From Candidatus Pacearchaeota archaeon (GTDB taxonomy: Archaea; Nanobdellota; Nanobdellia; Pacearchaeales; GW2011-AR1): a DNA stretch of 34,805 bases. The notes below the pieces were generated by a model that saw nothing but the letters and a program-made list of their open reading frames with translations, made no database searches and was not told the origin of the DNA. Each line of letters begins with the position of its first letter. The first letter of the stretch is position 1. Of the stretch, positions 3,758 to 23,491 are shown one piece after another. The stretch is from contig JAGLIS010000002.1 of the NCBI GenBank assembly GCA_023142835.1, positions 1 to 34,805 of the forward strand, read 5' to 3'. The position numbers and the translations under genes were made by a program.

Positions 3758-3851
3758 AGTTAAATACTAATAAGTTCAAATCCCCTGTAGAAATTTAAAA
3801 CTCCCCAACCAAAACCTCTTAATTTAAATAATCTAATCGTCACTACCCCTT

Positions 3852-5706: not shown

Positions 5707-6741
5707 ATGGTGATTTCAAATTTGCTTGGGTTTTTTCTTCCGCTAATTTTTTTAGTAGGAATTGTCACGAGTTACACTGACATTCGACAAGGGAAAATTT
5801 TCAATAAACATCTTTTATGGGCATTGGTAATTATGATAATTATTTATCTTGTTATTTTGATTGGACCATGGTTACTTGAGGATAATTATTTCTTTAATCT
5901 TGGATTAAATTTTTTGATATCCTTTGTAATCGGATTTTTGTTTTGGCATTTAGGACTCTGGAGTGCAGCAGATTCTAAACTATTTGCATTATATTCTCTT
6001 TTAATTCCCCTAACAGTTTATTCCAAAACCTATTATTCTTTTTTTCCTTCATTAACCCTATTGATTAATTCCTTTGTCCCATTTTTCGTAGGATTTTCTT
6101 TAAAATCTTTCTTTACAGATTCTATTGATCAAAGGAAAAAATTCTTTTCAAATATCAGTATAAAGGATATTATTACTCTCATTATGCTAATTTTTGTTAT
6201 GATGTGGATTCCTTCGTTATTTTTTAAGGTTTTAAATATTCAATTTCTTTTTATAATTAGTTTAGCAATAATGTTTGGATTGGCATTTATTTTAAAAAAA
6301 CTTTTTGATAAAAATCTTTTTTTTGTTATGATTGGTTTGACCATCGTTAGAATTATTTTTGATTATGCTTATGTTAGTACTTTTGAATTTTTAAAACAGT
6401 TCTTTTATCTTTCGATTTTGCTTATTATAATTTTTATGTTGATTAATTCTAGTTCGCAGTTTTTTGTGAAGAAAATTTGGATTAACAATATTAGACCTGG
6501 GATGATTCTTGCTGGAAAAGTGTATGATGGGGAAAAAGAACTCAAGTTGGAACACCCGGCGGAAGGTCTTACAATAAAGGATGTGAAAAAAATCATGAGA
6601 CTATATAAAAATAAAAAGATTGGAGACGAAGTGAATATTTATCAGACGATTCCATTTGCTCCATTTATATTTGCTGGGGCTTTACTTACAATTGTTCTTC
6701 GTGGAGATTTTCTAATTTCTTTGATAAAACTTCTTACATGA
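5707..6741 (+). CDS. A24-family aspartic prepilin/preflagellin peptidase (PibD/FlaK/EppA-like) with a soluble insert before the last TM helix
   Basis: Polytopic membrane ORF. First Asp context is SYTDIRQGKI; the second lies in WSAADSKLFA (G-x-G-D-like). The terminal IPFAPFIFAGALL resembles the PFGP..L end of PilD/FlaK-family enzymes. Residues about 255-315 are hydrophilic. Confidence 0.7.
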   Translation: MVISNLLGFFLPLIFLVGIVTSYTDIRQGKIFNKHLLWALVIMIIIYLVILIGPWLLEDNYFFNLGLNFLISFVIGFLFWHLGLWSAADSKLFALYSLLIPLTVYSKTYYSFFPSLTLLINSFVPFFVGFSLKSFFTDSIDQRKKFFSNISIKDIITLIMLIFVMMWIPSLFFKVLNIQFLFIISLAIMFGLAFILKKLFDKNLFFVMIGLTIVRIIFDYAYVSTFEFLKQFFYLSILLIIIFMLINSSSQFFVKKIWINNIRPGMILAGKVYDGEKELKLEHPAEGLTIKDVKKIMRLYKNKKIGDEVNIYQTIPFAPFIFAGALLTIVLRGDFLISLIKLLT

Positions 6742-6756
6742 TTTAGTGTAATAATT

Positions 6757-6764
6757 CTTATATA
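6757..6764 (+). promoter_or_regulatory. TATA-like box (CTTATATA) about 25 nt upstream of the 6786 ATG; implies a leaderless transcript for the Hxs-like operon
   Basis: Position and sequence only. The same spacing recurs at many genes in this window. Confidence 0.35.
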
Positions 6765-6785
6765 GGGTATGAACTTTGTTTTTAT

Positions 6786-7193
6786 ATGGAGATTCATCAT
6801 GAAGATAACTTTGTATTAATTGAAATAAATCCAGAGATTTATCTATTGGAAGTCGTTTATTCTGCAGCTTATGTTTTTTTAGATAGAGCCTATATTCGGC
6901 TTGATGGCGACGCTGACAAAAAGATAATTGTTGAGTTGAGACCTAAAGAAGATTATTCCTTGGAACAACTAAAGAATGAATTCAATAATGAGTTGCTTAA
7001 TTATGCGTTCCATAAATCTCAGATTGAAAATTCAGGAGACATACGGAATATTTTGATGCAACGGGCTCTTTTTATTCCAGAGATAAATAAAATTGAAAAA
7101 GACGATTTATTGAATGAAGAATTTTCTGGAGATCCTAATGAAATTTTTTCACTTGAAGATTCTTCAGAAAACGAAGTTCCGTGGGAGGAATGA
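6786..7193 (+). CDS. HxsD-like protein (His-Xaa-Ser system accessory protein) with an acidic C-terminal tail
   Basis: 135 aa. ...LKNEFNNELLNYAFHKSQ... resembles the LLNDYxLRE signature that I recall naming the HxsD family. The context also supports it (rSAM/SPASM plus a His-x-Ser repeat peptide downstream). The stop overlaps the next start (ATGATG at 7190-7195). Confidence 0.5.
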   Translation: MEIHHEDNFVLIEINPEIYLLEVVYSAAYVFLDRAYIRLDGDADKKIIVELRPKEDYSLEQLKNEFNNELLNYAFHKSQIENSGDIRNILMQRALFIPEINKIEKDDLLNEEFSGDPNEIFSLEDSSENEVPWEE

Positions 7194-7411
7194 TGGAAAG
7201 TTTTGAGACCTTTTTAAATTTGAAATTCTACAACATTGATTCTATAGAAGAATCGATTGAAGATTTTGGAGAAGTTTGTGACATTTTTTTTGATAAGTGT
7301 TCGGGGGAGATAAAAGTTATATCTTTCGACGCTGAGACGAGTTCCGAGGAAATTTTTCGAGAATTTTGCAATTATGTTTTGGGGGTTATGAAAAATAATC
7401 AAGTAATATGA
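7190..7411 (+). CDS. Small acidic protein (73 aa), apparent short paralogue of the preceding HxsD-like protein
   Basis: The ORF track starts at GTG 7181. I prefer ATG 7190 (or 7193), which is preceded by GGGAGG (7183-7188) and overlaps the upstream TGA. ...SSEEIFREFCNYVLGV... parallels SLEQLKNEFNNELLNYAF in the upstream protein. It overlaps the rSAM start (ATGA at 7408-7411). Confidence 0.45.
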   Translation: MMESFETFLNLKFYNIDSIEESIEDFGEVCDIFFDKCSGEIKVISFDAETSSEEIFREFCNYVLGVMKNNQVI

Positions 7412-8790
7412 AAGAATATCGATTGAATTTTTTAAGGAAGAAAAAGATTGGCGAGAAATATTTAGTGACTACAGATCATGGAAGTTGGATATATTTGGGA
7501 ACAGAAGAGTTAGATAAATTAATATCTAAAGATTTGGATGAATCACTTTATGCTCGCTGTGAGGAGAAAGGAATAATTATTACAGAAGATAATAAGTCAG
7601 ATATTATAAAAAATATTCGTGAGAAATATGCGTTTCTTTCTAGCGGGACTTCACTTCATATTATTGTAGCGACGCTGAGATGTAATCTTCATTGTGTTTA
7701 TTGTCACGCTTCTTCTTGTCCGCAATCTTTTGAAGGTTATGATATGGATGAAAAAACGGCGAAGAAGACAGTTGATTTTATTTTTCAATCTCCTGCAAAA
7801 AATATTACAATTGAAATTCAGGGAGGAGAACCTTTGTTAAATTATGATGTTATAGAATATATTGTTAAGTATTCTAAGAAGTTGAATGAAGTTCATAAGA
7901 AAAATTTGAGATTGACGGTTGTCACTAATTTTGGAATGATGGATGGTGAGAAATTAGATTTTTTTGAAAATGAAGATGTTGATATTTGCACTTCACTTGA
8001 TGGTCCAAAAGAATTGCATGAGAAGAATCGGAATTTTGGAAGTCATGGACCTGTAGTTAAGTGGCTTGAAGAAATTAGGAAACGGGAGAAAAATGGAATC
8101 TTACATAAAAATGCGGTTTTGACTGTGACTCATGAAAGTTTAAAATATCCTCGAGAGATTGTTGATGAATATGTTAAAAATGGGGTGAAGGATATTCATT
8201 TGAGATTCTTGAATAATCTTGGAAACGCTAAACAAGATTGGGAAAAAATTTGTTATAGTTCTGAAGAATTTATAGACTATTGGAAGAAATCCTTGGAATA
8301 TATTTTTGAATTAGATAAATCGGGAATTTTTCTGAGAGAGCGTGGAGCTACAATAATCATGAAGAAAATTCTTGGTGGAGAGCCTAATTATCTTGAGCTA
8401 AGAAGTCCTTGTGGTGCTGCGATCGGACAGTTGTTATATAATTATGATGGTGCGATCTATACTTGTGACGAGGCACGAATGGTAGGAGAAGATATTTTTA
8501 AATTAGGAAATGTTAAGGAAAATAATTATTCTGAAATTATTTCTTCGAATCAAACTTGCGGGATCGTGGCTGCTTCCATAAATGATACACAAATTTGTGA
8601 TTCGTGTGTTTACAAACCTTACTGCGGAATCTGTCCTGTTTGTAATTATGCAGAGCAAGGAAGTATCATCGCGAAAATCCCGCAAACAATGAGATGTCAA
8701 ATTTACAAAGCACAGTTTGATTATCTTTTTGATAAAGTCTTAAATGATTCAATAGCAAAAGAAGTTCTTTTAACTTGGGTTAAAAATTAG
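7408..8790 (+). CDS. Radical SAM/SPASM peptide maturase (HxsB/HxsC-like)
   Basis: CNLHCVYCHA (C-x3-C-x2-C), IQGGEPLLNYD, and C-terminal SPASM cysteines (..SPCGAA..YTCDE..CDSCVYKPYCGICPVC..MRCQ). A roughly 90-aa N-terminal extension precedes the cluster motif and could be a substrate-recognition domain. Confidence 0.85.
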   Translation: MKEYRLNFLRKKKIGEKYLVTTDHGSWIYLGTEELDKLISKDLDESLYARCEEKGIIITEDNKSDIIKNIREKYAFLSSGTSLHIIVATLRCNLHCVYCHASSCPQSFEGYDMDEKTAKKTVDFIFQSPAKNITIEIQGGEPLLNYDVIEYIVKYSKKLNEVHKKNLRLTVVTNFGMMDGEKLDFFENEDVDICTSLDGPKELHEKNRNFGSHGPVVKWLEEIRKREKNGILHKNAVLTVTHESLKYPREIVDEYVKNGVKDIHLRFLNNLGNAKQDWEKICYSSEEFIDYWKKSLEYIFELDKSGIFLRERGATIIMKKILGGEPNYLELRSPCGAAIGQLLYNYDGAIYTCDEARMVGEDIFKLGNVKENNYSEIISSNQTCGIVAASINDTQICDSCVYKPYCGICPVCNYAEQGSIIAKIPQTMRCQIYKAQFDYLFDKVLNDSIAKEVLLTWVKN

Positions 8791-8793
8791 GAA

Positions 8794-8802
8794 TATTTAA
8801 AA
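8794..8802 (+). promoter_or_regulatory. TATA-like box (TATTTAAAA) about 27 nt upstream of ATG 8825; possible dedicated promoter for the precursor peptide gene
   Basis: Lies in the 34-nt gap after the rSAM stop. The spacing matches the leaderless pattern elsewhere in the window. Confidence 0.35.
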
Positions 8803-8824
8803 AAGATAATTGCCTGTTGTTACA

Positions 8825-9073
8825 ATGAAAGAAGGGGTAAAATCAAAGATTCCAAAATTAAAGAAGAAGATTAGCGCTTTTTTGGTTGGTGAGGAAGGGA
8901 AAATATCAAAAAATTCTTTATTAAAAATAGGTGGTGTTTTGACAGGATTGTCCTCTGCAACGATTGTTGCAGGAGTAAATAATTTGCATTTGAGCTATAC
9001 AGATTCGACTGCAACGGCTAAGCATGGAAATCATTCGAGTCACTCACAACACGGTAGCCACTCGAGTTATTAA
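8825..9073 (+). CDS. His-Xaa-Ser repeat peptide (HxsA-like putative precursor), 82 aa
   Basis: C-terminus ...TATAKHGNHSSHSQHGSHSSY has five His at exact 3-residue spacing, then Tyr and the stop. The N-terminus is Lys-rich, followed by the hydrophobic segment LLKIGGVLTGLSSATIVAGV. The ORF track begins at TTG 8810; ATG 8825 is preferred because of the TATA spacing. Only 2 nt separate its stop from the next ATG. Confidence 0.65.
   Translation: MKEGVKSKIPKLKKKISAFLVGEEGKISKNSLLKIGGVLTGLSSATIVAGVNNLHLSYTDSTATAKHGNHSSHSQHGSHSSY
9023..9070 (+). repeat. Coding His-x-x triplet repeat (HGN HSS HSQ HGS HSS Y)
   Basis: cat gga aat cat tcg agt cac tca caa cac ggt agc cac tcg agt tat. CAYTCGAGT occurs twice. 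Confidence 0.9.
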
Positions 9074-9075
9074 CT

Positions 9076-10992
9076 ATGGAATCAATTCAAACACCCCAAG
9101 CTATTCCGCCACAAAGTAACAAGTGGAAGATTTTCATCATTCCGATTATATTAATTATCGTTTTCCTTGCCATTGGAAATCTCTATTTATTTTATTTTTC
9201 AGGTGATGATTTTTTGCAGGATTATGACGAAGTGATAGATTATGAAACTCTCGTGGACGAAGTTAATTTTTCTCATGAGTTAACTCAAGATTATACTAGA
9301 AATCCTATTTCTGTTGTTGATTTAGATATTAGCAGAGAAGGAAATTTGTTTGTTACGGATTCTTCAGGACATAGAATAATGGTTTTTGATTCTGATTTAA
9401 ATAATATTAGGAATATTGGTGAGAAATATAGTGAAGATAGTGGTTCAATTATTAGTGGTAGAGTTACTAACGTTGAGGAAATGATGCAATTCCCTGGTTC
9501 TTCTGCATTAGCTGGAAATTATATTTATGCGATAGATAGAATGAATAGAAGGATTAATACTTATACACTAAATGGAGATTTTGTCGAATGGAGAAATTTT
9601 CCTGAAGAAGTTATTTCTCAAACAGATGTTGGAGAAGCTCCCCATATTGATGGACAGAGAGTTAGTTTGATTGTTTTAAATAATGGTGATTTGCTTCTTC
9701 ATTCGTTGACAAGTAACAATGTTTATATTCTAGATTTTGAAACTTTAGCCATTAAGAAAACTTTAACTTTTGAGGGTATGAAGGCTTTTGGCGTAGGTAA
9801 ATCTTTGAAAGGATTTTATGTAATTGATTCCCTAAATAAGAAAGTGTATGAATATAGTGAAGATCTTTCTTTGATTGGGACTATTGACAGTGAGCTCATT
9901 AATCCAGTCGATGTTTGTGTTTTGTCAGATAAGTTTGTGATTACCGATGAGGGTGATGATTCCTTAAAATTATTTAATTTAGATTTTAGTTTTATAGAAA
10001 AGAAAGAGCTTACAGGAATTTCTCCAGATTTTATTGCTTGTGAAGAAGACGTAGTTTATATTTTTGATGATAGTGAAGGTAGAGTTGTTAAGATTAGTTT
10101 AGATAACCTTGAAGTTAAAAAGGAAGTTTCTGTTATTTCTCAATTGAATATTTTGAAGGGTGCTCCTATCTTTATTGCATCAAGTCAGATGAATGGTGAT
10201 GTTGCGATTGAGGATTCTCAAAATAATTTAATTCTTATTTTGGATGAAGATTTAAATTATAAAAATATTATTGGAATTGGTTTTGGAGATTCCCCTAATA
10301 AATTTAAATTCCCTACTGGACTTTCCTATGATAATGATGGAAACCTTTATGTTTTAGATAGGTGGAATACGAAGATTAAGATTTATGATTCCGATTATAA
10401 TTATATTAGATCAATTGATGATATAGGTTACTCTGGTAATGATATGATTGTGTTAGATAACGGGAATATTATGTATTTGGATGTTGATACTTATACTGTG
10501 AAATTTATTGACAGCGATGGAAATTTGGTTGGGGAATTAACTGAAGAGAAAGGGATGATTGCCCCTCATGGGCTTGGTATTTACAAGAGTAATTATATTG
10601 TTAGTGACGAAGTTCCTAGAGAATCTGATGGACATTACGATGTTTACTTCAAAGAGTATGACAAGAATTATAATTTTGTGAAATCTCATGTGATGCCAAA
10701 TCCAACTGTTTTTGAGACTTCTGAAACTTTGTCGATTTATGGGGATATGGTTATTATGCCAGATAATGATGAGAATAATTTGTTCTTTTATGATTTGATT
10801 AATGATGAGATTATTGAGAATATTACAGTTTCGCACGCTAGTTTTTTTGGGGCTATAGAGGTAGAGTTGCCAGCAGGTAAGGATTATGTTTTAGTCACTA
10901 ATCAGATGGATGGTAAATTATTTAAGATTGATATTAATTCTCGGAAGATAGTTGACGAAAAGAGGATTTCACTTTATTATAAAGAATATTAA
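9076..10992 (+). CDS. Membrane-anchored NHL-repeat beta-propeller protein, 638 aa
   Basis: N-terminal TM helix WKIFIIPIILIIVFLAIGNLYLFYF. It has repeated NHL-type blades, e.g. GNLFVTDSSGHRIMVFDSDLNNIRNIG and PTGLSYDNDGNLYVLDRWNTKIKIYDSDYNYIRSI. Confidence 0.75.
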   Translation: MESIQTPQAIPPQSNKWKIFIIPIILIIVFLAIGNLYLFYFSGDDFLQDYDEVIDYETLVDEVNFSHELTQDYTRNPISVVDLDISREGNLFVTDSSGHRIMVFDSDLNNIRNIGEKYSEDSGSIISGRVTNVEEMMQFPGSSALAGNYIYAIDRMNRRINTYTLNGDFVEWRNFPEEVISQTDVGEAPHIDGQRVSLIVLNNGDLLLHSLTSNNVYILDFETLAIKKTLTFEGMKAFGVGKSLKGFYVIDSLNKKVYEYSEDLSLIGTIDSELINPVDVCVLSDKFVITDEGDDSLKLFNLDFSFIEKKELTGISPDFIACEEDVVYIFDDSEGRVVKISLDNLEVKKEVSVISQLNILKGAPIFIASSQMNGDVAIEDSQNNLILILDEDLNYKNIIGIGFGDSPNKFKFPTGLSYDNDGNLYVLDRWNTKIKIYDSDYNYIRSIDDIGYSGNDMIVLDNGNIMYLDVDTYTVKFIDSDGNLVGELTEEKGMIAPHGLGIYKSNYIVSDEVPRESDGHYDVYFKEYDKNYNFVKSHVMPNPTVFETSETLSIYGDMVIMPDNDENNLFFYDLINDEIIENITVSHASFFGAIEVELPAGKDYVLVTNQMDGKLFKIDINSRKIVDEKRISLYYKEY

Positions 10993-11771
10993 AGATTATT
11001 TTTTATGTTAGGGAATATAACAATTCTATTGAATTTGTTTTTTAATTCTTCAGGTATTATCATTTCTGTTTTTATTAGTTCAGCATTTCCGATTATGAAA
11101 ACTGGACGATCAAAGTATTTTGTTTCCTTCGTAATTATTTGATTTAGACATTCTTTTTTGCAAGGTTCTATTTTATAATTGTATTCGGAAGTATTGCACT
11201 TAGGATATATACATCTCCTTGTTACTGATATTACTGAGTTCCCTAGATAGAGAGTTATGTTGCTGTTTTCAGGGAGGTCTATTCCTTGTGGTGGGACATC
11301 TGTTTCGAATCTTTTTATGTTGAGGTCTTTTAAAAAATCAAGAAGTTCCGGATTCGATAATGAGTTATCTTTAAAGTTATCCGGAGATTCCTTAAGACAT
11401 CCAGTCATTATTTCTGGACCCTTCTTCATTCTTATTAAAACTCTTCCATAATTTATTTTTACTTCGGGGAAAGCCTCTAGAATTTCTAAGAGTCCTAAAT
11501 CATTAATCGTTACTTCGAATTTTTTATTGATTTCTGAAATGTCTTTTATTAAATGTTTTAAATTATTGATACCCAAGTTAGTTAGTAAAGGAGTTAGGAG
11601 AACAAATGTCTTATTTTTTTTAATGCAGAATTCAAAGATTTCTTTTGTCTCGGAAAATGTTGGAATTTTTCTTTCACAAAACTCATTTCCAAAATATATT
11701 AAATTGTATTTATCTAAATACTTTAGATTTTGTAATTCTTCTAAAGAGCTTATTTTTATTCCGAATTCCAT
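10989..11771 (-). CDS. U32-family Fe-S protein, UbiV-like (260 aa)
   Basis: The N-terminus ...LIYFGNEFCERKIP parallels UbiV ...IYLGEAVCSKRR. The later segment RRCIYPKCNTSEYNYKIEPCKKEC (C-x4-C-x11-C-x3-C) gives a 4-Cys set like the UbiV 4Fe-4S ligands. ATG 11771 is chosen over the track's TTG 11783, giving a TAATG junction with the upstream gene. Confidence 0.6.
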   Translation of the reverse strand: MEFGIKISSLEELQNLKYLDKYNLIYFGNEFCERKIPTFSETKEIFEFCIKKNKTFVLLTPLLTNLGINNLKHLIKDISEINKKFEVTINDLGLLEILEAFPEVKINYGRVLIRMKKGPEIMTGCLKESPDNFKDNSLSNPELLDFLKDLNIKRFETDVPPQGIDLPENSNITLYLGNSVISVTRRCIYPKCNTSEYNYKIEPCKKECLNQIITKETKYFDRPVFIIGNAELIKTEMIIPEELKNKFNRIVIFPNIKNNL

Positions 11772-12715
11772 TAATAATAACAATTGTTCTTACAATCAAA
11801 TTTGTAATATCGACTGAAAAGTTCCTTGCATTTAGTTTTGTATTCTTCCTTATCTAGATTCATTAGGCTAAGAGTTTTTTTTATTAACTTGGCATCGTTG
11901 ATTTTCCTTATATGACTATTATTTCTTCCAACAATTTTTAGATTTTTTATTCCAATTTTTTCTAGTTCTTTAATAAAACAGATTCCACAGAATGGATTAA
12001 ATTTTTTTAGAATTGTTAAAGTATTCTCTTGAATTATCTTTTCATCTTTTTTCGCTTCCTCATTTATGAAATAAATTTTTTGTTTGAAAGGAATATTACA
12101 AGTTGTTGTAAAAACTTTATGTTCTGGAATGTGACATCTTGAGCAAAATCCGTCTAGGTTTCTACAGAATTGATTGAGTATCATTACTTCGAATTCTATT
12201 TCTGGATTATTTAGGGTAATTGATTTTAACTCTTCAATAGATAAATGTCTTGGGAGAATAATTTTTTTTATCCCGAGATTTTTGTAGAAATTTACCGCAT
12301 TTGAATTTAGACAGACGTTGATACAACTTAAAATAATTTTATTTTTCGGTGCATTCTCTTTTAAAAATTTTATTATTGATAATTCCGAAACTATAAAATT
12401 GTCTACGTAGTCTTTAAATATCATAACTTGTTCTTTGGCTCTTGCTAATTGTCTTGAATTGTAAAATGACTTATTTAATGTAAGAGAAAGTTCTGCGGGT
12501 TTTTTTGCCAAATTATTTATTCTATTTATTTCTTTTATTTGTTCTAAGTTCTCAAAGTTTGCTCCTCTTTCAAATCGTTCATTAACAGAATCCCACTTAT
12601 TATTTTCATTTTCACCTTCAGTTAAATTATTTACACCTAGATAAATTTCTTCAATTCCTAATTTATTATATTCCGCTATATCTTCTATCAAACTCGCGGG
12701 CGCTACTATTTTCAT
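11771..12715 (-). CDS. U32-family Fe-S protein, UbiU-like (314 aa)
   Basis: The N-terminus MKIVAPASLIEDIAEYNKLGIEEIYLG resembles the U32 start (ELLAPAG...GADAVY.G). EVMILNQFCRNLDGFCSRC keeps the C-x4-G-x-C core of the U32 signature as I recall it. Further Cys occur in TTTCNIP and FCGIC. It joins the upstream rSAM gene by an ATGA overlap. Confidence 0.7.
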   Translation of the reverse strand: MKIVAPASLIEDIAEYNKLGIEEIYLGVNNLTEGENENNKWDSVNERFERGANFENLEQIKEINRINNLAKKPAELSLTLNKSFYNSRQLARAKEQVMIFKDYVDNFIVSELSIIKFLKENAPKNKIILSCINVCLNSNAVNFYKNLGIKKIILPRHLSIEELKSITLNNPEIEFEVMILNQFCRNLDGFCSRCHIPEHKVFTTTCNIPFKQKIYFINEEAKKDEKIIQENTLTILKKFNPFCGICFIKELEKIGIKNLKIVGRNNSHIRKINDAKLIKKTLSLMNLDKEEYKTKCKELFSRYYKFDCKNNCYY

Positions 12716-14895
12716 TTTTGTTTATAGTTAAAATTATTTATCATCAGTATTTGAGATATTAAATCTACATAATTTAGACCTTCTTTCGTTATTTCTATTT
12801 TGTTATTTTCAATAATTATTATATTTTTGTTTTGCAAATAATTTAGGCTATCCGAAAAACGGAGCTTATATTTTTCTTCGATTTCAAAATTTAATAATCT
12901 TGATTTTAAAGATATTTTATGAAGTTCATCTTGTTCACCTTGTAGTTCGAATTTTTTGTAGTTGTCTTTTGTCATGTTTGCAAAATATGTTTTGCCTACA
13001 AATGAGAATGTGTTAATACCAATCCCTAAAATGTTTCCTTGATTTAGAAAATTTATTTGATATTCAAATTTTGGTTTTCCTATTTTATGGAAATCTTCTG
13101 CTGTATATTGTCGGTATCCGTTGCTATCTAAAATTAGCCTTCCCTTTTTATTTAGCCAATCAAGTTTTTTTGAGTATTCAATAAAAAATAATTCATCACT
13201 TTCAAGAATTCTTTTGCTGTTGTGCAGTGGCTGGTATGTTACATTGTCAGGGTTTAATGAAAGCATGGTTTCCATTTCGGATTCGTATGAGTCCATATCA
13301 TCCAGATAGACACCATAAATTATGTCTATACTTTTTGTGAAAGTATAATTTTTTAATGAGTTAAAAAAGGAAGTCATTTCTTCTATTGTCGAGGGTCTGC
13401 CAAACTCTTGGAGAATTTTATCGTTGAAACATTGGACTCCAATGCTTAATCTTGTAATGTAGTTTTGTAAGTAATCAAAAAATTTTTTATCAAAATTTGA
13501 TGGGAAAGTTTCCATTGTTATTTCTTTGATGTTCTCTTTTGGAAGATACGAAAATAGTTTATCGAATATTTTTTGGAAATTTTCTTTCCCTATTGTTGTT
13601 GGCGTTCCACCTCCGATGTAAATGTATCTGATGTTATTCGTAATTAGGACTTCCTTAAATTTTTCAATTTCCTTAAGCATAAAATCAATGTAACTCTTTA
13701 TATGTTGATTTGGATATTTTTGAATCCCGCAGAACTTGCATCGCGAATTACAGAATGGGAAATGGAGATAGAGCCCAAATTCTTTTTCAACTGGAGAATT
13801 TTTTATTTTTTCTATTAATTCTTCGAAAGAACTTGGAGTTTTCCATTGGTCAAGTGTTGGGTATTGCATAAAAAAATCTGAATGTCTAAAATAGATAGGG
13901 ATGTAATCTGCCTGGTTTTTTGTTTCTGGAAGCATGTAAGTTAAATTTTTTTGGAGATTGGAAAAGTATTTATCCTTCAGAGATTCTCCTCGGAATTTTG
14001 TTAGAGGGTCTTTAGTAATTTCGTCTTTCACCTTTATCCCTCCAAGACACCTTTCTTTTATTTTACAACTTTGACATATATCATCCGATAATGGTTCTGA
14101 AGCATTTTCTTTCGCCTTGGAAATTATTTCTTTGAATTCAAGAGGGGAAGTTCCTAAGATATTTCCTAAGACTACTGAAGAATAACTGTTTAATTTTATG
14201 TCGCCGTTTTCGTTTATGTAAATGAAGTTATTGCCATCGTCGTTTTGTCCACCATCGCAGTATTCCAAAGCTTTTCTTGAGACAAGACAAAGTGGAAATG
14301 CGTTCGCAATTTTTATTGGATTTCTAATTTTGTTCTCTTTAGAATTCCATATTACTATTTTTTCAGATAGTTTTAGAAGATCTAAAAGATAATCTTTCTC
14401 TTCGCTATTTATGTCCCTTAAAAAGAAAAAATCTTCTAAAGGAATTTCCCTTATGTCTTCAAATATTTTTTCTAATGGAAGATTTTTTTGGAAGACCATA
14501 CATACCATAAATTTGATTTTAGGATTTTCATTAATTCGTCTTGTTAGTGATTCCTTATATTCCAATATTTGGTCTGCGTTTTGAAAAGAGAGGAGACAGT
14601 AATCAATAAATTGAGATATTTCGTCGAATCTTTTTATTCGTTGGATTGAAATATTTGCTATGACTTTTAAGTTTGCAATTTTTATTTTTCTTAAGAATTC
14701 TAAAATGTCTGGATGTTCGAAGATATCTCCACCAGTTAGTCTTAATGTATCAATATCATTTTCTTTTGCTATAGCAATTATATTATCTAAAGATTTTTCT
14801 GAAAGAAATGTCGGAGCGAGTTTGCTTTTGTAACAGTAAGAACAGCCAATGCTACAGACATTTGTGATACTGACTTGGAGCTCTTTTAGTTGCAT
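12712..14895 (-). CDS. Fused double radical-SAM protein: N-terminal rSAM with a SPASM/twitch-like auxiliary motif plus a C-terminal HemN/HemW-like (class C) rSAM, 727 aa
   Basis: Module 1 has NVCSIGCSYCY (residues 13-22), RLTGGDIF, ..EYCDGG.. and CQSCKIKERCLGG (C-x2-C-x5-C-x-GG). Module 2, from about residue 370, has LYLHFPFCNSRCKFCGI and YIGGGTPT, typical of HemN-like enzymes. Confidence 0.85.
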   Translation of the reverse strand: MQLKELQVSITNVCSIGCSYCYKSKLAPTFLSEKSLDNIIAIAKENDIDTLRLTGGDIFEHPDILEFLRKIKIANLKVIANISIQRIKRFDEISQFIDYCLLSFQNADQILEYKESLTRRINENPKIKFMVCMVFQKNLPLEKIFEDIREIPLEDFFFLRDINSEEKDYLLDLLKLSEKIVIWNSKENKIRNPIKIANAFPLCLVSRKALEYCDGGQNDDGNNFIYINENGDIKLNSYSSVVLGNILGTSPLEFKEIISKAKENASEPLSDDICQSCKIKERCLGGIKVKDEITKDPLTKFRGESLKDKYFSNLQKNLTYMLPETKNQADYIPIYFRHSDFFMQYPTLDQWKTPSSFEELIEKIKNSPVEKEFGLYLHFPFCNSRCKFCGIQKYPNQHIKSYIDFMLKEIEKFKEVLITNNIRYIYIGGGTPTTIGKENFQKIFDKLFSYLPKENIKEITMETFPSNFDKKFFDYLQNYITRLSIGVQCFNDKILQEFGRPSTIEEMTSFFNSLKNYTFTKSIDIIYGVYLDDMDSYESEMETMLSLNPDNVTYQPLHNSKRILESDELFFIEYSKKLDWLNKKGRLILDSNGYRQYTAEDFHKIGKPKFEYQINFLNQGNILGIGINTFSFVGKTYFANMTKDNYKKFELQGEQDELHKISLKSRLLNFEIEEKYKLRFSDSLNYLQNKNIIIIENNKIEITKEGLNYVDLISQILMINNFNYKQK

Positions 14896-14917
14896 GATTT
14901 TAAATGTTTCTGTACGG

Positions 14918-14925
14918 ATTTAAAG
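14918..14925 (-). promoter_or_regulatory. TATA-like box (CTTTAAAT on the minus strand) about 26 nt upstream of the double-rSAM ATG at 14895
   Basis: Lies in the 98-bp divergent intergenic region. It mirrors the CTTTAAAA box of the opposite gene. Confidence 0.35.
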
Positions 14926-14963
14926 ATTGTTGTAGTCAAGTGGTTGGACGTTAATTTAGGAAA

Positions 14964-14972
14964 CTTTAAAAG
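14964..14972 (+). promoter_or_regulatory. TATA-like box (CTTTAAAAG) about 26 nt upstream of the ATG at 14994
   Basis: Same divergent intergenic region, with leaderless spacing. Confidence 0.35.
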
Positions 14973-14993
14973 TAATTTATTCCTATAGAACTT

Positions 14994-17729
14994 ATGTTAT
15001 TTAGAAGAGGCAATATAGGGAAAGGTCTTTTTTTCTTTTTAATAATTATATTTTTGGCAGTTGGAGTTACGGCAGTGACAATTAATGTTTGGACTTATGT
15101 TGAGAGAGGCACTAAGAATCCTGAAGCTCCTATAGAAAGACAAGAATGGGTAACTGATGACTATGCTCTTATAAATGAATTTGAAGATTGTGATTATTCC
15201 GAAGGAGAGTATGCTGTAGGATTTAAATTAGTTAGAAAGGATGGAGCAGAGAGTGTAAATGCTCAGATAATTTGTGAAAACCAAGGAACCAATATTACTT
15301 TTACCCCTAACAACGCTTTTTCTAATGCAGTTAATAGGACATGTACCTCAGGTCCAGATGTTATGCAGAATATTGCCGTGGCTAGTTTTGCAAATAATCT
15401 TTCAGGAGATGGATATAGTTGTACTGGAAGTACTGGATGTAGTGGAATGACAAATTGTGGATATGAAGCAGGTTTTCCGAAGGTTTGTACAAGTTTTGCA
15501 GATAGTACTACCTGTGAGGATACTGATGGTGATTGTCAATGGCGGTCTGCGGCAACGGGTTATTGTGGTGGTCTTGCTTATTGTAACGGTGCTTACGATA
15601 ATGAAGGAGATTGTAACGGAGATTCAAATTGTACGTGGGTAGATGCTATTCCTTCAGGATGTGAAGCAGATGATGAAATGACTTATGATCCTAACTGTCC
15701 TTCAAAAAATTCGGAAGGTAGTTGTTTAAGTTATCAAGGATGTTCGTGGGGTGTTACTAATTGTAATTCTTATGATAAAAATAAAGGAACTTGCGATTCT
15801 AAAGATGGGTGTAGTTGGGACGGGTATATAAATTGTACTACTTACGACAAGACTGACTGTTTAACTCATAGTGGTGATTTGGGGAGTTGTTCTTGGATTC
15901 CGATGGGGGCGACAGATTCAGAATTTGGGCTAGGACAGATATGTCCAGCTAGTGATCCAATTATGGTAGGGGTTGCAGGTTATAATGGTGAAGGAACTGA
16001 ATATTGTAGAGGAGAAGAAATTTCTGCAGGAGTGACTTACTCTAGTTTATACAATGAACAAGTTGCAGGGATTCTTCCGAAGTGTGCACGAGCAGATAAT
16101 CCTAATTGTAATTATAGATTTGCAGGGGAAGGTTGTTTCTGGTATTTTGCGGGTGCAGATGGGGGTTGTCCAGATAATCATTATATCTCCGGTGTTAGAG
16201 GTTTTGTCGGAGATGATAGTATTGTCGTTGGAAGAGATATTTATATTCAGTCTTATTGTTGTTCTATAGGAGCAATTGATCACTCTTTAGAAGTTCCTGG
16301 AGGAGGAGATGAAGATTGCGATGGTTTAATCAATGAAGGTTATTTCGCTCCAGATTCTATAAGTGCTCATCTTGAAGATAATATTTGTGTTAATATTCCT
16401 TGTTCTATTCCAGGAATTGTTAAATCTAATTCTATTTATTGCCAATCCGAAGGAGCTTATTATTTTGATGGTAATTCTTCAGGAGGGGTAACCGGGACAG
16501 TCTATCCAGATTTTCCTAGATTTTTATTTACTGTTGATTATGATTTAGATAAAGATTCTTGTATCTGTAAGTTCGGTGAAGGTAATTGGTCTGATGATAT
16601 TGATGGGTGGGCGCCTACTTTGACAAGCGGTCCAGGAACTTGTTGTGAGTCTGGTACGAATACTGCTGATGAAAAAGAGTTTTCTATTACTGGTAATTGG
16701 GATGGTTCCATCTCATGTTGTAATAATCGTGTAGATGTAAGTGGAGATAGGACTGTTTCCATTGGAGGACGTTGTCTTCAGACAAAAGCTTATTGGACAG
16801 ATATGCAAGGTAACGCGTTAGGGTCTACAGATTTAGGGGATAGCGTTCAGATAAGAGTAGATAATGTAGAGCTTGATGTAGGAACTGAAGTCGTCTTTGA
16901 GATTTGGGAGGATGATGTAGAATGTATTTTTGGTTTGCCATTTGGGTGTGGAGATGATATGATTCGGGCTGCTATTACAGGTACCGTTGATAATAATCAT
17001 AATTTAATTGCGGTTTGGACAAATGATGCGGATGATATGGATTTGACAAATGATTATGGAGAATTTTATTTTAAAGTTAAGTATGATGATATTGGTGATT
17101 TGGTTACTGATGAGGAATATAAAGAAAGTAGTAATCAATTAGAAGTTAATCAAGATTATAACAATGCCCCAATATCGGTTAACATACTCTCACCAGCATG
17201 CGGAGATTATTTTAATGCAAGTTCAGACACAATTGATATCGAGATTAATGCTCAAGACGAAGACGATATCATCGAAGGACATCTAAGTATCAACGACTTA
17301 GAGATTGGAACTTTTAAAAATGGAAATACAATAATAGGCAATATTTTCTCTAAAGGTGGTAATTATAAAATTGTCGCCGAGGCTGTTAATAGTCGAGGAC
17401 AAAATAAAAGAGCAATTTCAAATATAATGATAATTGACACAACGACAGACGGAGAATACGTTGCAGCATGCATCATCAAACCTGAAGACTACAGCGACAT
17501 CCCATTAAGTTCTGTAGAATTTGACGCTTCAACAAGTAAAGGTATTCAATACGATTTTACCACAGGAACTACAACAGAACTTAGTTTAAGCAAATTAAAT
17601 TTTGATTGGTATTTCAGCGACAGAAGCGATCGTAATATGGATGGAAATAATGAAATGTCATACAAGTTTTGGAAGAACTTTGGGAATGTAGGGAGTAATT
17701 GGGCAACATTAAAAGTATCTATTATTTAA
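14994..17729 (+). CDS. Large Cys-rich secreted/surface protein (911 aa), putative adhesin, with an N-terminal signal or prepilin-like anchor
   Basis: N-terminus MLFRRGNIGKGLFFFLIIIFLAVGVTAV. It carries five C-x5-6-C-x-W repeats (residues about 165-301). A DEDCDGLINEG motif at about 16308-16343 resembles the D-x-DCDG-x-x-DEG metal-binding-type motif of many surface proteins. C-terminal Ig/PKD-like segments are present (..VEFDASTSKG..LNFDWYFSD..ATLKVSI). Confidence 0.7.
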   Translation: MLFRRGNIGKGLFFFLIIIFLAVGVTAVTINVWTYVERGTKNPEAPIERQEWVTDDYALINEFEDCDYSEGEYAVGFKLVRKDGAESVNAQIICENQGTNITFTPNNAFSNAVNRTCTSGPDVMQNIAVASFANNLSGDGYSCTGSTGCSGMTNCGYEAGFPKVCTSFADSTTCEDTDGDCQWRSAATGYCGGLAYCNGAYDNEGDCNGDSNCTWVDAIPSGCEADDEMTYDPNCPSKNSEGSCLSYQGCSWGVTNCNSYDKNKGTCDSKDGCSWDGYINCTTYDKTDCLTHSGDLGSCSWIPMGATDSEFGLGQICPASDPIMVGVAGYNGEGTEYCRGEEISAGVTYSSLYNEQVAGILPKCARADNPNCNYRFAGEGCFWYFAGADGGCPDNHYISGVRGFVGDDSIVVGRDIYIQSYCCSIGAIDHSLEVPGGGDEDCDGLINEGYFAPDSISAHLEDNICVNIPCSIPGIVKSNSIYCQSEGAYYFDGNSSGGVTGTVYPDFPRFLFTVDYDLDKDSCICKFGEGNWSDDIDGWAPTLTSGPGTCCESGTNTADEKEFSITGNWDGSISCCNNRVDVSGDRTVSIGGRCLQTKAYWTDMQGNALGSTDLGDSVQIRVDNVELDVGTEVVFEIWEDDVECIFGLPFGCGDDMIRAAITGTVDNNHNLIAVWTNDADDMDLTNDYGEFYFKVKYDDIGDLVTDEEYKESSNQLEVNQDYNNAPISVNILSPACGDYFNASSDTIDIEINAQDEDDIIEGHLSINDLEIGTFKNGNTIIGNIFSKGGNYKIVAEAVNSRGQNKRAISNIMIIDTTTDGEYVAACIIKPEDYSDIPLSSVEFDASTSKGIQYDFTTGTTTELSLSKLNFDWYFSDRSDRNMDGNNEMSYKFWKNFGNVGSNWATLKVSII
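15486..15896 (+). repeat. Five tandem protein-level Cys/Trp repeats: CTSFADSTTCEDTDGDCQW / CNGAYDNEGDCNGDSNCTW / CPSKNSEGSCLSYQGCSW / CNSYDKNKGTCDSKDGCSW / CTTYDKTDCLTHSGDLGSCSW
   Basis: Read directly from the translation. Consensus is C-x3-[YF/x]D-x3-G-x-C-x5-6-C-x-W. Confidence 0.8.
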
Positions 17730-18239: not shown

Positions 18240-18289
18240 TCAAATTGATTACTAACAATAAACATTATTGAAAGGAGGTTGAAAAATAT

Positions 18290-18796: not shown

Positions 18797-18810
18797 TTTA
18801 ATTTATCTTT

Positions 18811-18839
18811 CGGCTCTACGGAGCCGTTTAATTTTTTTC
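18811..18839 (+). terminator. Stem-loop CGGCTC-TACG-GAGCCG followed by a T-rich tract (TTTAATTTTTTT) after the candidate major pilin gene
   Basis: Perfect 6-bp GC-rich stem at 18811-18826, then an oligo-T run. This is the only such GC-rich hairpin I noticed in the pilus locus. Confidence 0.5.
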
Positions 18840-18889
18840 AATTTTTTATCAAGAGGTAAATATATAAAGAAGTTTTTTATTTAATTACT

Positions 18890-21133: not shown

Positions 21134-21165
21134 GATTATAAATAAAAAGCTATTTTACAAAAATT

Positions 21166-23457: not shown

Positions 23458-23491
23458 GTAATTTTATAAATATGATTGCAATCAAAATGCT

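What the first reader, a model, noticed from the sequence alone, without database searches (positions are those of the whole stretch)
5707..14895. Hypothesis: the two convergent operons form one system, with the N-module of the 727-aa protein as the missing second Hxs radical-SAM
Canonical Hxs loci have two rSAM proteins (HxsB and HxsC), but the plus-strand operon here has one. The nearest other rSAM/SPASM-like module is the N-terminal half of the convergent 727-aa protein. The two operons abut with no spacer: the stops overlap in TTAA at 10989-10992. The block is bounded by an A24 peptidase on one side and a divergent promoter shared with a Cys-rich surface protein on the other. Taken together, the block holds a precursor, 3 rSAM modules, 2 U32 Fe-S proteins, 2 HxsD-like proteins and an NHL propeller. 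That would be an unusually elaborate anaerobic peptide-tailoring island for a small genome.
Basis: inference. Interest (0 to 1): 0.65.

Follow-up and report, generated by a model that had tools for sequence, protein, structure and literature searches.

The report
Archaeal His-x-Ser peptide maturation island
Two back-to-back gene clusters in a tiny sediment archaeon work as one unit to process a small histidine-rich surface peptide; the unit is a relative of a bacterial anti-virus system with an extra set of oxygen-free tailoring enzymes.

Summary
Window 5707-14895 encodes an A24-type peptidase, HxsD, an HxsD-like protein, HxsB, an HxS-repeat precursor and an NHL protein on the + strand. Converging on them are a U32b gene, a U32a gene and a 727-aa double radical-SAM protein. 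The stop codons overlap in TTAA at 10989-10992.

"One system" is well supported. Every relative of the double radical-SAM gene with enough flanking DNA (8 lineages, 35-65% identity, different flanks and spacing) lies within 10 kb of an HxsD-HxsB-precursor core. One relative is fused to U32a. One archaeal locus (L094) carries the same parts unfused, with the N-type radical-SAM gene inside the Hxs operon.

"N-module = missing HxsC" is not supported as homology. The module gives no score against the HxsC models, whereas HxsC-like genes from other HxsB loci score 1e-28 to 1e-46. Its distant relatives occur fused to HxsC-like domains. It belongs to a separate, uncurated, Hxs-linked radical-SAM class.

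The A24 peptidase is a conserved component, not a boundary. The Hxs core usually occurs without this cassette, so the cassette is accessory. This is a new archaeal variant of the HXS system. The enzyme chemistry and the biological role are inferred, not shown.

The parts
5707..6741 (+). A24-type (prepilin-peptidase-like) polytopic aspartyl peptidase, proposed leader peptidase of the system
   Evidence: Weak Pfam and EppA matches for this copy. In the 34-member family, D25, N33, D89 and K91 are invariant, with consensus motifs SYxDIKxGKIRN and AGDAKLF. 29 of 34 members match PF01478 and 20 of 34 match Arc_PepC. The gene is present in 46 HxsB loci.
6786..7193 (+). HxsD
   Evidence: TIGR03976, 55 bits (cut-off 50). 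Conserved upstream of HxsB in 65 loci.
7181..7411 (+). HxsD-like small protein (HxsD_rel)
   Evidence: NF038315, 51.3 bits (cut-off 41). A protein of about 70 aa sits at this position in most DPANN and CPR loci.
7408..8790 (+). HxsB radical SAM/SPASM maturase
   Evidence: TIGR03978, 471.7 bits (cut-off 370). C92, C96, C99 and the SPASM cysteines are invariant.
8810..9073 (+). HxS-repeat precursor; the true start is probably ATG 8825 (82 aa)
   Evidence: It carries the conserved leader KIPKLKKKISAFLVGEEGKISKNSLLKIG, then a hydrophobic stretch, then a core ending HSSHSQHGSHSSY. The same architecture occurs in about 60 loci. HxsA3 and HxsA4 matches are below cut-off.
9076..10992 (+). NHL beta-propeller protein with an N-terminal membrane anchor, a lineage-specific accessory
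   Evidence: PF01436 match. Homologues occur at the same place in L001, L003 and L006 and in the split-gene locus L094 (145 bits).
10989..11783 (-). U32b: remote U32-like, UbiV-like Fe-S partner protein; the true start is probably ATG 11771 (260 aa)
   Evidence: No Pfam or NCBIfam match. The family has 59 clusters, all unannotated. It lies immediately next to U32a in all 24 fetched loci that hold it, downstream wherever both are separate full-length genes. hhalign against U32a gives E 6.4e-5. The AF2 model has pLDDT 92, and 5d88 (a U32 protein) gives the highest TM among the top matches. C36, C191, C208 and C212 are nearly invariant, giving the pattern CXnCX16CX3C.
11771..12715 (-). U32a: UbiU-like U32 Fe-S protein
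   Evidence: PF01136, 102.7 bits. hhalign to E. coli UbiU gives probability 98.9%, E 3e-17. C184, C191, C206 and C243 are invariant (CX6CX14CX36C), compared with CX6CX16CX38C in UbiU. The start overlaps the stop of the 727-aa gene by 4 nt.
13891..14895 (-). N-module of the 727-aa protein: radical SAM with a partial SPASM-like C-terminal cysteine set; an Hxs-linked class that is not HxsC
   Evidence: C14/C18/C21 and C203, C213, C274, C277, C283 are invariant. The best NCBIfam match is MoaA at 38 bits, the SPASM domain scores 17.5 (cut-off 27), and HxsC gives no match. Only 306 relatives were found among 1.84 billion cluster representatives. N-type domains occur in L028, L057, L027, L017, L037, L043 and L094.
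12712..13890 (-). C-module of the 727-aa protein: HemN-like radical SAM (HemN/HemW/ChuW superfamily)
   Evidence: STM4012-family 155 bits, ChuW/HutW 129, HemZ 123, HemW 122, all below cut-off. CX3CX2C is at 382-389 and a GGGTP motif is present. HemN-like genes recur in HxsB loci L048 (four copies), L051, L057, L036, L070, L084, L086 and L094.
14896..14993 (.). 98-bp divergent intergenic region between the 727-aa gene and the Cys-rich protein gene
   Evidence: Sequence read directly; A+T-rich with TTTAAA boxes. Its function was not tested.
14994..17729 (+). 911-aa Cys-rich (46 Cys) surface protein; membership of the system is doubtful
   Evidence: Homologues at the same position occur only in the closest relatives: L001 (46% identity), L003 (38%), and weakly L006. 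None was found in more distant cassette loci.

Best explanation
The block is one Hxs-type system for maturing a peptide or small protein, in a DPANN archaeon from anoxic cold-seep sediment.

Core, + strand (shared with hundreds of DPANN and CPR genomes): the precursor has a conserved leader (FLxxEEGKISK), a hydrophobic segment and a C-terminal His-x-Ser core ending SHSSY. I infer that HxsD and the HxsD-like protein recognise it and that HxsB modifies it.

Accessory cassette, - strand: three translationally coupled genes add further tailoring. These are an N-type radical-SAM/SPASM-like module fused to a HemN-like radical-SAM module, and a UbiU/UbiV-like U32 Fe-S pair.

Inferred chemistry:
- HemN-like module: one-carbon (methyl or methylene) transfer to an sp2 carbon.
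- N-type module: C-H activation or a cross-link.
- U32 pair: O2-independent, prephenate-type hydroxylation of an aromatic ring (His imidazole or the C-terminal Tyr).

I further infer that the A24-type aspartyl peptidase cuts after the conserved Gly just before the hydrophobic segment. This would release the leader and leave a membrane-anchored product displaying the modified HxS tail on the cell surface, possibly held by the NHL propeller.

By analogy with the bacterial HXS defence system, the product may act at the envelope against incoming viral DNA. Metal binding is an alternative role.

The N-module is not HxsC. It represents a different Hxs-associated radical-SAM class. In this lineage no HxsC-like gene accompanies the core.
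For: Shown by computation:

1. Family assignments.

2. Linkage. All relatives of the double radical-SAM gene with enough flank lie within 10 kb of HxsD-HxsB-precursor. The loci are window, L001/2, L003, L004/22, L006, L008, L090/L024/L097 and L099 (35-65% identity). Flanking genes and intervening genes differ between them.

3. Fusions and fissions:
- P0007 is the double radical-SAM protein fused to U32a.
- L094 has the N-type radical-SAM gene inside the Hxs operon, followed by NHL, a separate HemN-like gene and U32a-U32b.
- L057 has an N-type gene directly followed by a HemN-like gene.
- L043 has HxsB, the HxS peptide, an N-type radical-SAM gene, another radical-SAM gene, U32a and U32b on one strand.

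4. Recurrence. U32 pairs lie within 10 kb of HxsB in 6 of 80 species-representative loci. HemN-like genes occur in 7 or more of them and N-type radical-SAM genes in 7 or more. The N-type class is very rare overall: 306 relatives among 1.84 billion representatives.

5. HxsC-like genes are absent from all 8 cassette-bearing archaeal lineages. They are present in 10 of 15 other archaeal loci with full flanks (Fisher p about 0.003, not corrected for phylogeny).

6. The A24 family has both catalytic Asp invariant. A Gly at the predicted -1 site co-varies with presence of the A24 gene in the locus (28/41 against 4/17, p = 0.003).

7. The three - strand genes overlap by 4 nt and 1 nt. The + strand genes are tightly packed.

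From the literature:
- HxsB, HxsC and HxsD mature HxsA, with N-terminal processing and a +8 Da change on the last HxS repeat, and the product blocks phage DNA entry (PMC13128918).
- UbiU and UbiV form a heterodimer in which each protein holds a [4Fe-4S] cluster on conserved cysteines, and they act in O2-independent, prephenate-dependent hydroxylation (PMC6747719, PMC10990095).
Against: - No expression or biochemical data exist, and no RNA runs hold this sequence.
- The two operons are convergent, so they are transcribed separately.
- U32a-U32b pairs also occur away from any Hxs genes, in L091, L092, L095 and L096. The pair is therefore a generic module, and its substrate here is an inference.
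- The link between U32b and U32 is weak at sequence level. hhalign against the single UbiV sequence gave E 0.008 and probability 5%.
- The known cassette-bearing lineages are few and all DPANN-like, so shared ancestry inflates the co-occurrence statistics.
- The window's precursor and its A24 protein both score below the curated cut-offs.
- A type IV pilus locus 3 kb downstream (17778-24661) could be the real client of the A24 peptidase.
Confidence: 0.72

Rival explanations
1. One reading: the N-module, or the double radical-SAM protein as a whole, does the job that HxsC does in canonical HXS loci.
For: No HxsC-like gene occurs in any cassette-bearing archaeal locus, while 10 of 15 other archaeal HxsB loci have one. 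In L094 the N-type radical-SAM gene sits inside the Hxs operon. L004 has an extra HxsD gene next to the double radical-SAM gene, which recalls the HxsC-HxsD complex (PMC13128918).
Against: The N-module has no sequence affinity to HxsC or HxsC4. More distant N-type domains (27-28% identity) are fused to HxsC-like domains in P0224 and P0221, and N-type genes coexist with four HxsC-like genes in L043. The two classes are therefore not interchangeable in those organisms. Several archaeal cores with full flanks (L010, L025, L038, L073) have neither enzyme nearby, so a second radical-SAM enzyme may not be obligatory.
Confidence: 0.25
2. The two operons are unrelated neighbours. The - strand cassette is an independent anaerobic modification pathway (RNA, cofactor or small molecule: a U32 hydroxylase plus radical-SAM methyltransferase) that sits beside the Hxs operon through inherited synteny.
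For: All U32 proteins with known roles act on quinones or RNA. U32a-U32b pairs, often with an upstream radical-SAM gene, occur in non-Hxs contexts L091, L092, L095 and L096. The orientation is convergent. The known lineages are few and related.
Against: Linkage persists down to 35% identity through rearrangements, with one to four unrelated genes inserted between the cassettes and changed flanks. Split versions place the parts inside the Hxs operon (L094, L043). The double radical-SAM family has only about 10 members in 5.8 billion proteins, and every member with enough flanking DNA lies next to Hxs genes. A housekeeping RNA or cofactor enzyme would not be so rare or so linked.
Confidence: 0.1
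3. The A24 peptidase serves the nearby type IV pilus locus (17778-24661) and only bounds the Hxs island.
For: Four or five pilin-like genes with classic class III signal peptides (KKRG|LSP and similar) lie 11 kb downstream of the A24 gene. No other prepilin peptidase was seen in the window.
Against: A24-like genes of this subfamily lie immediately upstream of HxsD in dozens of archaeal and bacterial HxsB loci with unrelated surroundings. Precursors have a small residue followed by a hydrophobic stretch at a fixed distance from the leader motif, and Gly at that site co-varies with presence of the A24 gene.
Confidence: 0.12

Closest known systems
HXS antiphage system of Pseudomonadota (HxsD-HxsB-HxsC-HxsA; Haft and Basu 2011; Li et al., Nat Commun 2026, PMC13128918)
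   Same: The window has an equivalog-level HxsB and HxsD and a precursor with C-terminal His-x-Ser repeats. N-terminal processing and export of the product to the envelope are plausible. The last repeat, SHSSY, resembles the modified SHRSS motif.
   Different: - There is no HxsC.
- There is an extra HxsD-like protein.
- The precursor is 82-87 aa, with a conserved EEGKISK leader and a hydrophobic anchor instead of a 214-aa protein with a peptidoglycan-binding domain.
- A dedicated A24 peptidase and an NHL protein are present.
- There is an accessory cassette of a double radical-SAM protein and a U32 pair.
- The host is archaeal and has no periplasm.
- The published survey found 99.7% of HXS systems in Pseudomonadota, so it did not cover this branch.
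UbiU-UbiV O2-independent hydroxylase (U32 family; PMC6747719, PMC10990095); also TrhP and RlhA
   Same: Two adjacent genes are present. The first is clearly UbiU-like (hhalign 98.9%) with a CX6CX14CX36C motif. The second has a UbiV-type motif, CXnCX16CX3C, whose first Cys lies far upstream. The habitat is anoxic.
   Different: No UbiT or quinone-pathway genes are present. The partner, U32b, is not recognised by the Pfam U32 model. The pair is coupled to radical-SAM genes and to a peptide precursor. A peptide substrate would be new for the U32 family.
HemN-like radical-SAM enzymes (HemN/HemW/ChuW; STM4012 family; class C radical-SAM methyltransferases such as NosN and TbtI, from my own knowledge)
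   Same: The C-module has CX3CX2C, a GGGTP motif and its best matches to STM4012, ChuW, HemZ and HemW. Class C methyltransferases are known to tailor RiPPs on aromatic carbons.
   Different: All scores are below the curated cut-offs. No HemN_C domain was detected. The module is fused to a second complete radical-SAM domain, and in P0007 also to a U32 protein.
Archaeal prepilin peptidases (PibD, FlaK, EppA; family A24)
   Same: Both catalytic Asp motifs are present, together with archaeal A24 C-terminal domain matches. The predicted cleavage site has a small residue followed by a hydrophobic helix.
   Different: The proposed substrate has a leader of about 40 aa resembling a RiPP leader, rather than a short class III signal peptide, with Lys at -3 rather than -2. 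This subfamily is genomically dedicated to Hxs loci.

Membership tests
HXS (His-Xaa-Ser) system | HxsB radical SAM/SPASM maturase | tested here: met
   TIGR03978, 471.7 bits against a cut-off of 370.
HXS (His-Xaa-Ser) system | HxsC, a second paired radical-SAM enzyme adjacent to HxsB | tested here: not met
   No protein in the window matches TIGR03977 or NF038332. The N-module scores nothing against HxsC-like seeds.
HXS (His-Xaa-Ser) system | HxsD small protein | tested here: met
   TIGR03976, 55 bits against 50; also HxsD_rel, 51.3 against 41.
HXS (His-Xaa-Ser) system | HxsA effector with tandem HxS repeats | tested here: inconclusive
   Four HxS units and a conserved family leader are present. 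HxsA3, HxsA4 and HxsA scores (34, 32 and 19 bits) are below their cut-offs (65, 55 and 122). No peptidoglycan-binding domain is present.
HXS (His-Xaa-Ser) system | Antiphage activity by blocking DNA entry | not testable with these tools
   Known only for the E. coli system (PMC13128918). PADLOC 2023 has no HXS model.
HxsC (as proposed for the N-module) | Sequence membership in the HxsC or HxsC4 models | tested here: not met
   Neither model is among the 25 listed N-module matches, the weakest of which has E 0.022. Controls from other HxsB loci score 1e-28 to 1e-46. N-type and HxsC-like domains coexist in single proteins.
U32 / UbiU-UbiV type O2-independent hydroxylase | U32 domain with the four-Cys [4Fe-4S] motif (UbiU: CX6CX16CX38C) | tested here: met
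   PF01136, 102.7 bits. hhalign to UbiU gives E 3e-17. C184, C191, C206 and C243 are invariant.
U32 / UbiU-UbiV type O2-independent hydroxylase | Adjacent partner subunit with a UbiV-type motif (CXnCX12CX3C) | tested here: inconclusive
   U32b is next to U32a in every fetched locus that holds it. C36, C191, C208 and C212 are nearly invariant. hhalign to the U32a family gives E 6e-5, and the fold match to 5d88 has TM about 0.5. However, there is no Pfam match, and hhalign to UbiV gives only E 0.008.
U32 / UbiU-UbiV type O2-independent hydroxylase | Prephenate-dependent hydroxylation activity and heterodimer formation | not testable with these tools
   Needs biochemistry or 18O-shikimate labelling (PMC10990095).
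HemN-like radical SAM (HemN/HemW/ChuW/STM4012) | CX3CX2C cluster motif, GGGTP SAM-binding motif and family-level HMM score | tested here: inconclusive
   The motifs are present. The best scores, STM4012 155 (cut-off 380) and HemW 122 (cut-off 205), are all below cut-off, and no HemN_C domain was found.
SPASM/twitch radical SAM (N-module) | C-terminal auxiliary-cluster cysteine motif (seven-Cys SPASM) | tested here: inconclusive
   Five invariant Cys are present (CX9C ... CX2CX5C). TIGR04085 scores 17.5 against a cut-off of 27.
Peptidase A24 (prepilin peptidase) | Two catalytic Asp in conserved motifs; Pfam PF01478 | tested here: met
   D25 and D89 are invariant in 34 homologues, and 29 of 34 match PF01478. 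The window copy itself scores 19.5 against a cut-off of 26.5.

The most novel reading that the evidence does not exclude
A UbiU/UbiV-like U32 Fe-S heterodimer, working with radical-SAM partners, acts as an O2-independent hydroxylase on a ribosomal peptide (His imidazole or C-terminal Tyr). This would be the first peptide or protein substrate for the U32 family. The tailored, prepilin-peptidase-processed HxS peptide would form an archaeal counterpart of the HXS barrier against viral DNA entry.
Probability: 0.3. Interest if true: 0.85.

Novelty: new variant of a known kind. Interest (0 to 1): 0.62.

Why it matters
HXS was shown to be an antiphage system only in 2026, and that study reported it as almost confined to Pseudomonadota. 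This locus belongs to a large, unstudied branch in DPANN archaea and CPR bacteria. That branch has its own precursor leader and a dedicated prepilin-type peptidase.

The branch also carries a variable set of anaerobic tailoring enzymes: HxsC-like paralogues, HemN-like, B12-dependent and N-type radical-SAM enzymes, and U32 pairs. The window shows the most compact form, with two radical-SAM domains fused and coupled to a U32 pair.

If the inference holds, three things follow:
- HXS-type envelope defence, or at least HxS peptide chemistry, extends to archaea.
- The U32 family gains a first link between its "organic oxygen donor" hydroxylases and peptide maturation.
- The unknown +8 Da HxS chemistry gains a tractable set of small operons for study.

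Tried and rejected
- jackhmmer from radical-SAM seeds drifted to all radical-SAM proteins and was useless for classification. It was replaced by best-seed phmmer and family profiles.
- Single-linkage BLAST clustering lumped 193 radical-SAM ORFs into one cluster.
- A PADLOC scan found no HXS model, only generic viperin-like radical-SAM matches.
- PDB sequence searches with the U32a and U32b profiles found nothing significant.
- hhalign of U32b against single UbiV and UbiU sequences was weak.
- The co-expression test was not possible. The stretch occurs only in cold-seep and marine-sediment DNA runs, and no RNA runs were found.
- A literature search for U32 together with radical SAM and RiPP found nothing relevant.
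- I considered the Cys-rich 911-aa protein as a system member or substrate. I left it as doubtful because it is syntenic only in the nearest relatives.
- I rejected N-module/HxsC orthology.

Full report
**What is in the window**

A tightly packed operon lies on the + strand:

- a 344-aa polytopic membrane protein (5707-6741);
- HxsD (6786-7193; TIGR03976, 55 bits against a cut-off of 50);
- a 76-aa HxsD-like protein (7181-7411; NF038315, 51 against 41);
- HxsB (7408-8790; TIGR03978, 472 against 370);
- an 87-aa HxS-repeat precursor (8810-9073; the likely true start is ATG 8825);
- a membrane-anchored NHL propeller (9076-10992).

Three translationally coupled genes converge on this operon from the - strand:

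- a 727-aa protein (12712-14895);
- a 314-aa U32 protein (11771-12715; PF01136, 103 bits), whose start overlaps the 727-aa gene's stop by 4 nt;
- a 264-aa protein with no family match (10989-11783; the likely start at 11771 overlaps the U32 stop by 1 nt).

The two operons end in overlapping stop codons, ttaa at 10989-10992. The 727-aa protein holds two complete radical-SAM modules. The N-module has CX3CX2C at C14/C18/C21 plus five invariant downstream cysteines. The C-module is HemN-like, with CX3CX2C at 382-389 and a GGGTP motif. No HxsC-like gene exists anywhere in the 34.8-kb window. The sequence comes from cold-seep and marine-sediment metagenomes. Its closest relatives are labelled Woesearchaeota or Nanobdellota.

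**The second U32 protein**

The 264-aa protein, which I call U32b, belongs to a family of 59 clusters, all unannotated and none recognised by Pfam. It lies immediately next to a bona fide U32 gene, U32a, in all 24 fetched loci that hold it.

The U32a family aligns to E. coli UbiU with 98.9% probability and E 3e-17. Its four invariant cysteines form CX6CX14CX36C. UbiU's cluster ligands form CX6CX16CX38C (PMC6747719).

The evidence for U32b is weaker but consistent:
- it aligns to the U32a profile at E 6e-5, probability 64%;
- its AF2 model is confident, with pLDDT 92 and pTM 0.91;
- the model is a TIM-like barrel whose best whole-fold match is the U32 protein Mk0906 (5d88, TM 0.48 and 0.51);
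- its nearly invariant C36, C191, C208 and C212 form CXnCX16CX3C, the same pattern as UbiV's CXnCX12CX3C with the first Cys far upstream.

Direct hhalign to the single UbiV sequence is weak, at E 0.008. I therefore accept "two U32-type Fe-S proteins" with that caveat.

**Do the two operons form one system?**

Full-length relatives of the 727-aa protein are extremely rare. Eight clusters were found in 5.8 billion proteins, and a few more in the exhaustive and metagenome scans.

Every relative with enough flanking DNA lies within 10 kb of an HxsD, small protein, HxsB and precursor core. The loci are L001/2 (64% identity), L003 (53%), L006 (46%), L008 (39%), L004/L022 (39%), L090/L024/L097 (37%) and L099 (35%).

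The outer flanks differ between these loci. Examples are RtcB and archease, ribosomal proteins with AmmeMemoRadiSam genes, and giant adhesins. The spacing also differs. The cassettes abut in the window's clade. They are separated by two to four unrelated genes in L004, L090 and L099.

Gene fusion and fission tie the parts together:
- P0007 is the double radical-SAM protein fused to U32a.
- L094, from a different archaeon, carries the same parts as separate genes: A24, HxsD, an 83-aa protein, HxsB, a 73-aa precursor, a 263-aa protein, an N-type radical-SAM gene (326 aa), NHL, a HemN-like gene (439 aa) and U32a-U32b. The N-type radical-SAM gene and NHL lie inside the Hxs operon.
- In CPR locus L057, an N-type gene is directly followed by a HemN-like gene.
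- In L043, HxsB, the HxS peptide, an N-type radical-SAM gene, another radical-SAM gene, U32a and U32b all lie on one strand.

This is strong comparative evidence for one functional unit.

**The dependency is one-way**

HxsB homologues number more than 5,000. In 80 species-representative HxsB loci, the core is accompanied by a changing set of accessory enzymes:
- HxsC-like radical-SAM genes of about 300 aa, often in several tandem copies (115 genes);
- HemN-like radical-SAM genes;
- B12-dependent radical-SAM genes;
- N-type SPASM-like radical-SAM genes;
- U32 pairs, in 6 of the 80 loci.

Conversely, U32a-U32b pairs also occur with no Hxs genes nearby. In Bathyarchaeia and Desulfobacterium they lie among FAD-binding/CCG and BcrAD/HGD-D genes. 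In two other clusters a radical-SAM gene again sits just upstream of the pair. Of six context look-ups for U32b-family members, chosen for long contigs without knowledge of context, two were Hxs-linked. The - strand cassette is therefore an accessory tailoring module recruited to the Hxs core. It is not an obligatory half of the system.

**Is the N-module the missing HxsC?**

By homology, no. Residues 1-331 match only generic radical-SAM starts: MoaA at 38 bits, ArsS at 33 and PapB at 29. The SPASM domain match is sub-threshold. Neither TIGR03977 (HxsC) nor NF038332 (HxsC4) is among the listed matches, the weakest of which has E 0.022.

As positive controls, radical-SAM proteins of 300-545 aa from other HxsB loci match HxsC4 and HxsC at 1e-27 to 1e-46. 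The double radical-SAM proteins score nothing against those proteins.

An exhaustive search found only 306 relatives of the N-module among 1.84 billion cluster representatives. None of the ten relatives I scanned reaches a curated family cut-off. Two of them, at 27-28% identity to the N-module, show that the classes are distinct and can coexist:
- P0224 is an HxsC-like domain (193 bits) fused to an N-type domain.
- P0221 is an N-type domain, an HxsC4-like domain and a SPASM radical-SAM domain in one protein.

A profile of the N-modules finds full-length N-type domains in HxsB loci L028, L057, L027, L017, L037, L043 and L094. The class is therefore Hxs-associated.

None of the eight cassette-bearing archaeal lineages has an HxsC-like gene in the locus. 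By contrast, 10 of 15 other archaeal loci with full flanks do (Fisher p about 0.003, not corrected for phylogeny). However, four archaeal cores with full flanks (L010, L025, L038, L073) have neither enzyme class nearby.

**The A24 peptidase is part of the system**

Homologues of the 344-aa protein lie next to HxsD in 46 HxsB loci, including bacterial ones. In 34 aligned members, D25, N33, D89 and K91 are invariant within the motifs SYxDIKxGKIRN and AGDAKLF. Of these members, 29 match Peptidase_A24 and 20 match the archaeal A24 C-terminal domain.

The precursors share a leader, (K)IPKxKKxIxxFLxxEEGKISKxxLLKxG. A hydrophobic stretch, a linker and (HxS)n ending in Y or W follow it. The residue 14 positions from the start of EEG is Gly, Ala or Ser in all but one of the 59 matched ORFs, and the one exception is probably a chance match. 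Gly at that position co-varies with an A24 gene in the locus (28/41 against 4/17, p = 0.003).

I infer that this peptidase removes the leader at that site, as a prepilin peptidase would. The product would be anchored by its hydrophobic N-terminus. A type IV pilus locus at 17778-24661 offers an alternative client. I rate that alternative low because of the cross-genome linkage to Hxs.

**Proposed mechanism (inferred)**

- HxsD and the HxsD-like protein present the leader to HxsB, which modifies the HxS core.
- The HemN-like module transfers a one-carbon unit. The canonical E. coli product carries a +8 Da change, described as a "+C/-4H" type, on its last HxS repeat (PMC13128918).
- The N-type module performs a further radical C-H activation or cross-link.
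- The U32 pair performs an O2-independent hydroxylation of an aromatic ring. All U32 proteins with known roles act this way on quinone, cytidine or uridine rings, with prephenate as the oxygen donor.
- The A24 peptidase then cleaves the leader, and the tail is displayed at the surface, possibly with the NHL propeller.

Cassette-bearing loci have short cores with one to five HxS units, ending SHSSY or SHGSY. Loci rich in HxsC-like genes have long (HGS)n arrays. This suggests site-specific tailoring of the terminal motif. By analogy with HXS, the role may be defence against viral DNA entry. Metal binding by the His-rich tail is an open alternative.

**Comparison with known systems, and novelty**

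The locus shares HxsB, HxsD and an HxS precursor with the published HXS system. It fails the HxsC criterion and lacks the peptidoglycan-binding HxsA architecture. It adds an A24 peptidase, an NHL protein and the cassette of a double radical-SAM protein and a U32 pair.

NCBIfam already holds models named HxsA3, HxsA4, HxsC4 and HxsD_rel, so curators know that variants exist. I found no paper describing the archaeal or CPR branch, or any link between U32 proteins and peptide maturation. The 2026 survey reported 99.7% of HXS systems in Pseudomonadota.

I file this as a new variant of a known kind. The "one system" claim is well supported by comparative genomics. The enzyme chemistry and the biological role remain inference.

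Noticed in passing
window 17778-24661: An archaeal type IV pilus-like locus. It has four or five small proteins with class III signal peptides (KKRG|LSPII, NKKG|ISAVV, DKRG|QIWVE, NKRG|WIRIL), a T2SSE ATPase (19604-21133) and two T2SSF membrane proteins (21329-23457).
   Followed up: partly
window 24736-27103 and 3134-5676: A HerA/DUF87-like ATPase (24736-26046) and a TatD DNase (26303-27103) lie downstream. A thymidine kinase-like ORF (3134-3757), an archease-like ORF (3852-4265) and an RtcB-like ORF (4258-5676) lie upstream. The three upstream names come from reading the translations and were not scanned here; L003 has an RtcB gene (Pfam) in the corresponding position.
   Followed up: no
L094:227-10852: A split-gene version of the whole system in another archaeon: A24, HxsD, an 83-aa protein, HxsB, a 73-aa precursor, a 263-aa protein, an N-type radical-SAM gene (326 aa), NHL (663 aa), a HemN-like gene (439 aa) and U32a-U32b. 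The two unannotated 263-aa genes (3691-4482 and 10861-11652) are unexplained.
   Followed up: partly
P0224 (834 aa), P0221 (1098 aa), P0208 (455 aa): Multi-domain fusions. P0224 is an HxsC-like domain plus an N-type radical-SAM domain. P0221 is an N-type, an HxsC4-like and a SPASM radical-SAM domain. P0208 is U32b fused to a SAM-dependent methyltransferase domain. Their genomic contexts could not be looked up.
   Followed up: partly
L091:9036-10798, L092:8985-10822, L095:8124-10708, L096:539-4990: U32a-U32b pairs outside Hxs loci. In Bathyarchaeia and Desulfobacterium they lie with FAD_binding_4/CCG and BcrAD/HGD-D genes. In a cluster of several radical-SAM, glycosyltransferase and sulfotransferase genes, and beside a B12-dependent radical-SAM gene, a radical-SAM gene lies directly upstream of the pair. 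The U32b family appears to be an unannotated partner subunit of a subset of U32 proteins.
   Followed up: partly
L036, L040, L043, L045, L051, L054 (gene next to HxsB or the HxS precursor): An unannotated gene of about 270-340 aa recurs next to HxsB or the HxS precursor in many CPR and bacterial loci. It may be another conserved component. It was not compared across loci.
   Followed up: no
L013:11523-12347; L048:20256-20975: Precursor diversity. L013 has two tandem precursor genes. L048 has a 239-aa precursor with more than 20 HxS units, together with eight HxsC-like and four HemN-like genes.
   Followed up: no
P0005 / L006:2219-4417: The HemN-like module of this relative has lost the middle Cys of CX3CX2C (FPFCEKKSKFC) and has GGYP instead of GGTP. 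It is possibly an inactive module.
   Followed up: no
L008:6725-8880: AmmeMemoRadiSam genes (AMMECR1, Memo and a radical-SAM gene) lie just upstream of the cassette in this relative. No precursor with the leader motif was found in L008 or L009.
   Followed up: no
L004:9675-9929 (also L005:1622-1876): An extra 84-aa HxsD gene lies divergently, right next to the gene for the double radical-SAM/U32 fusion. It hints that the cassette enzymes also use an HxsD-type partner.
   Followed up: no
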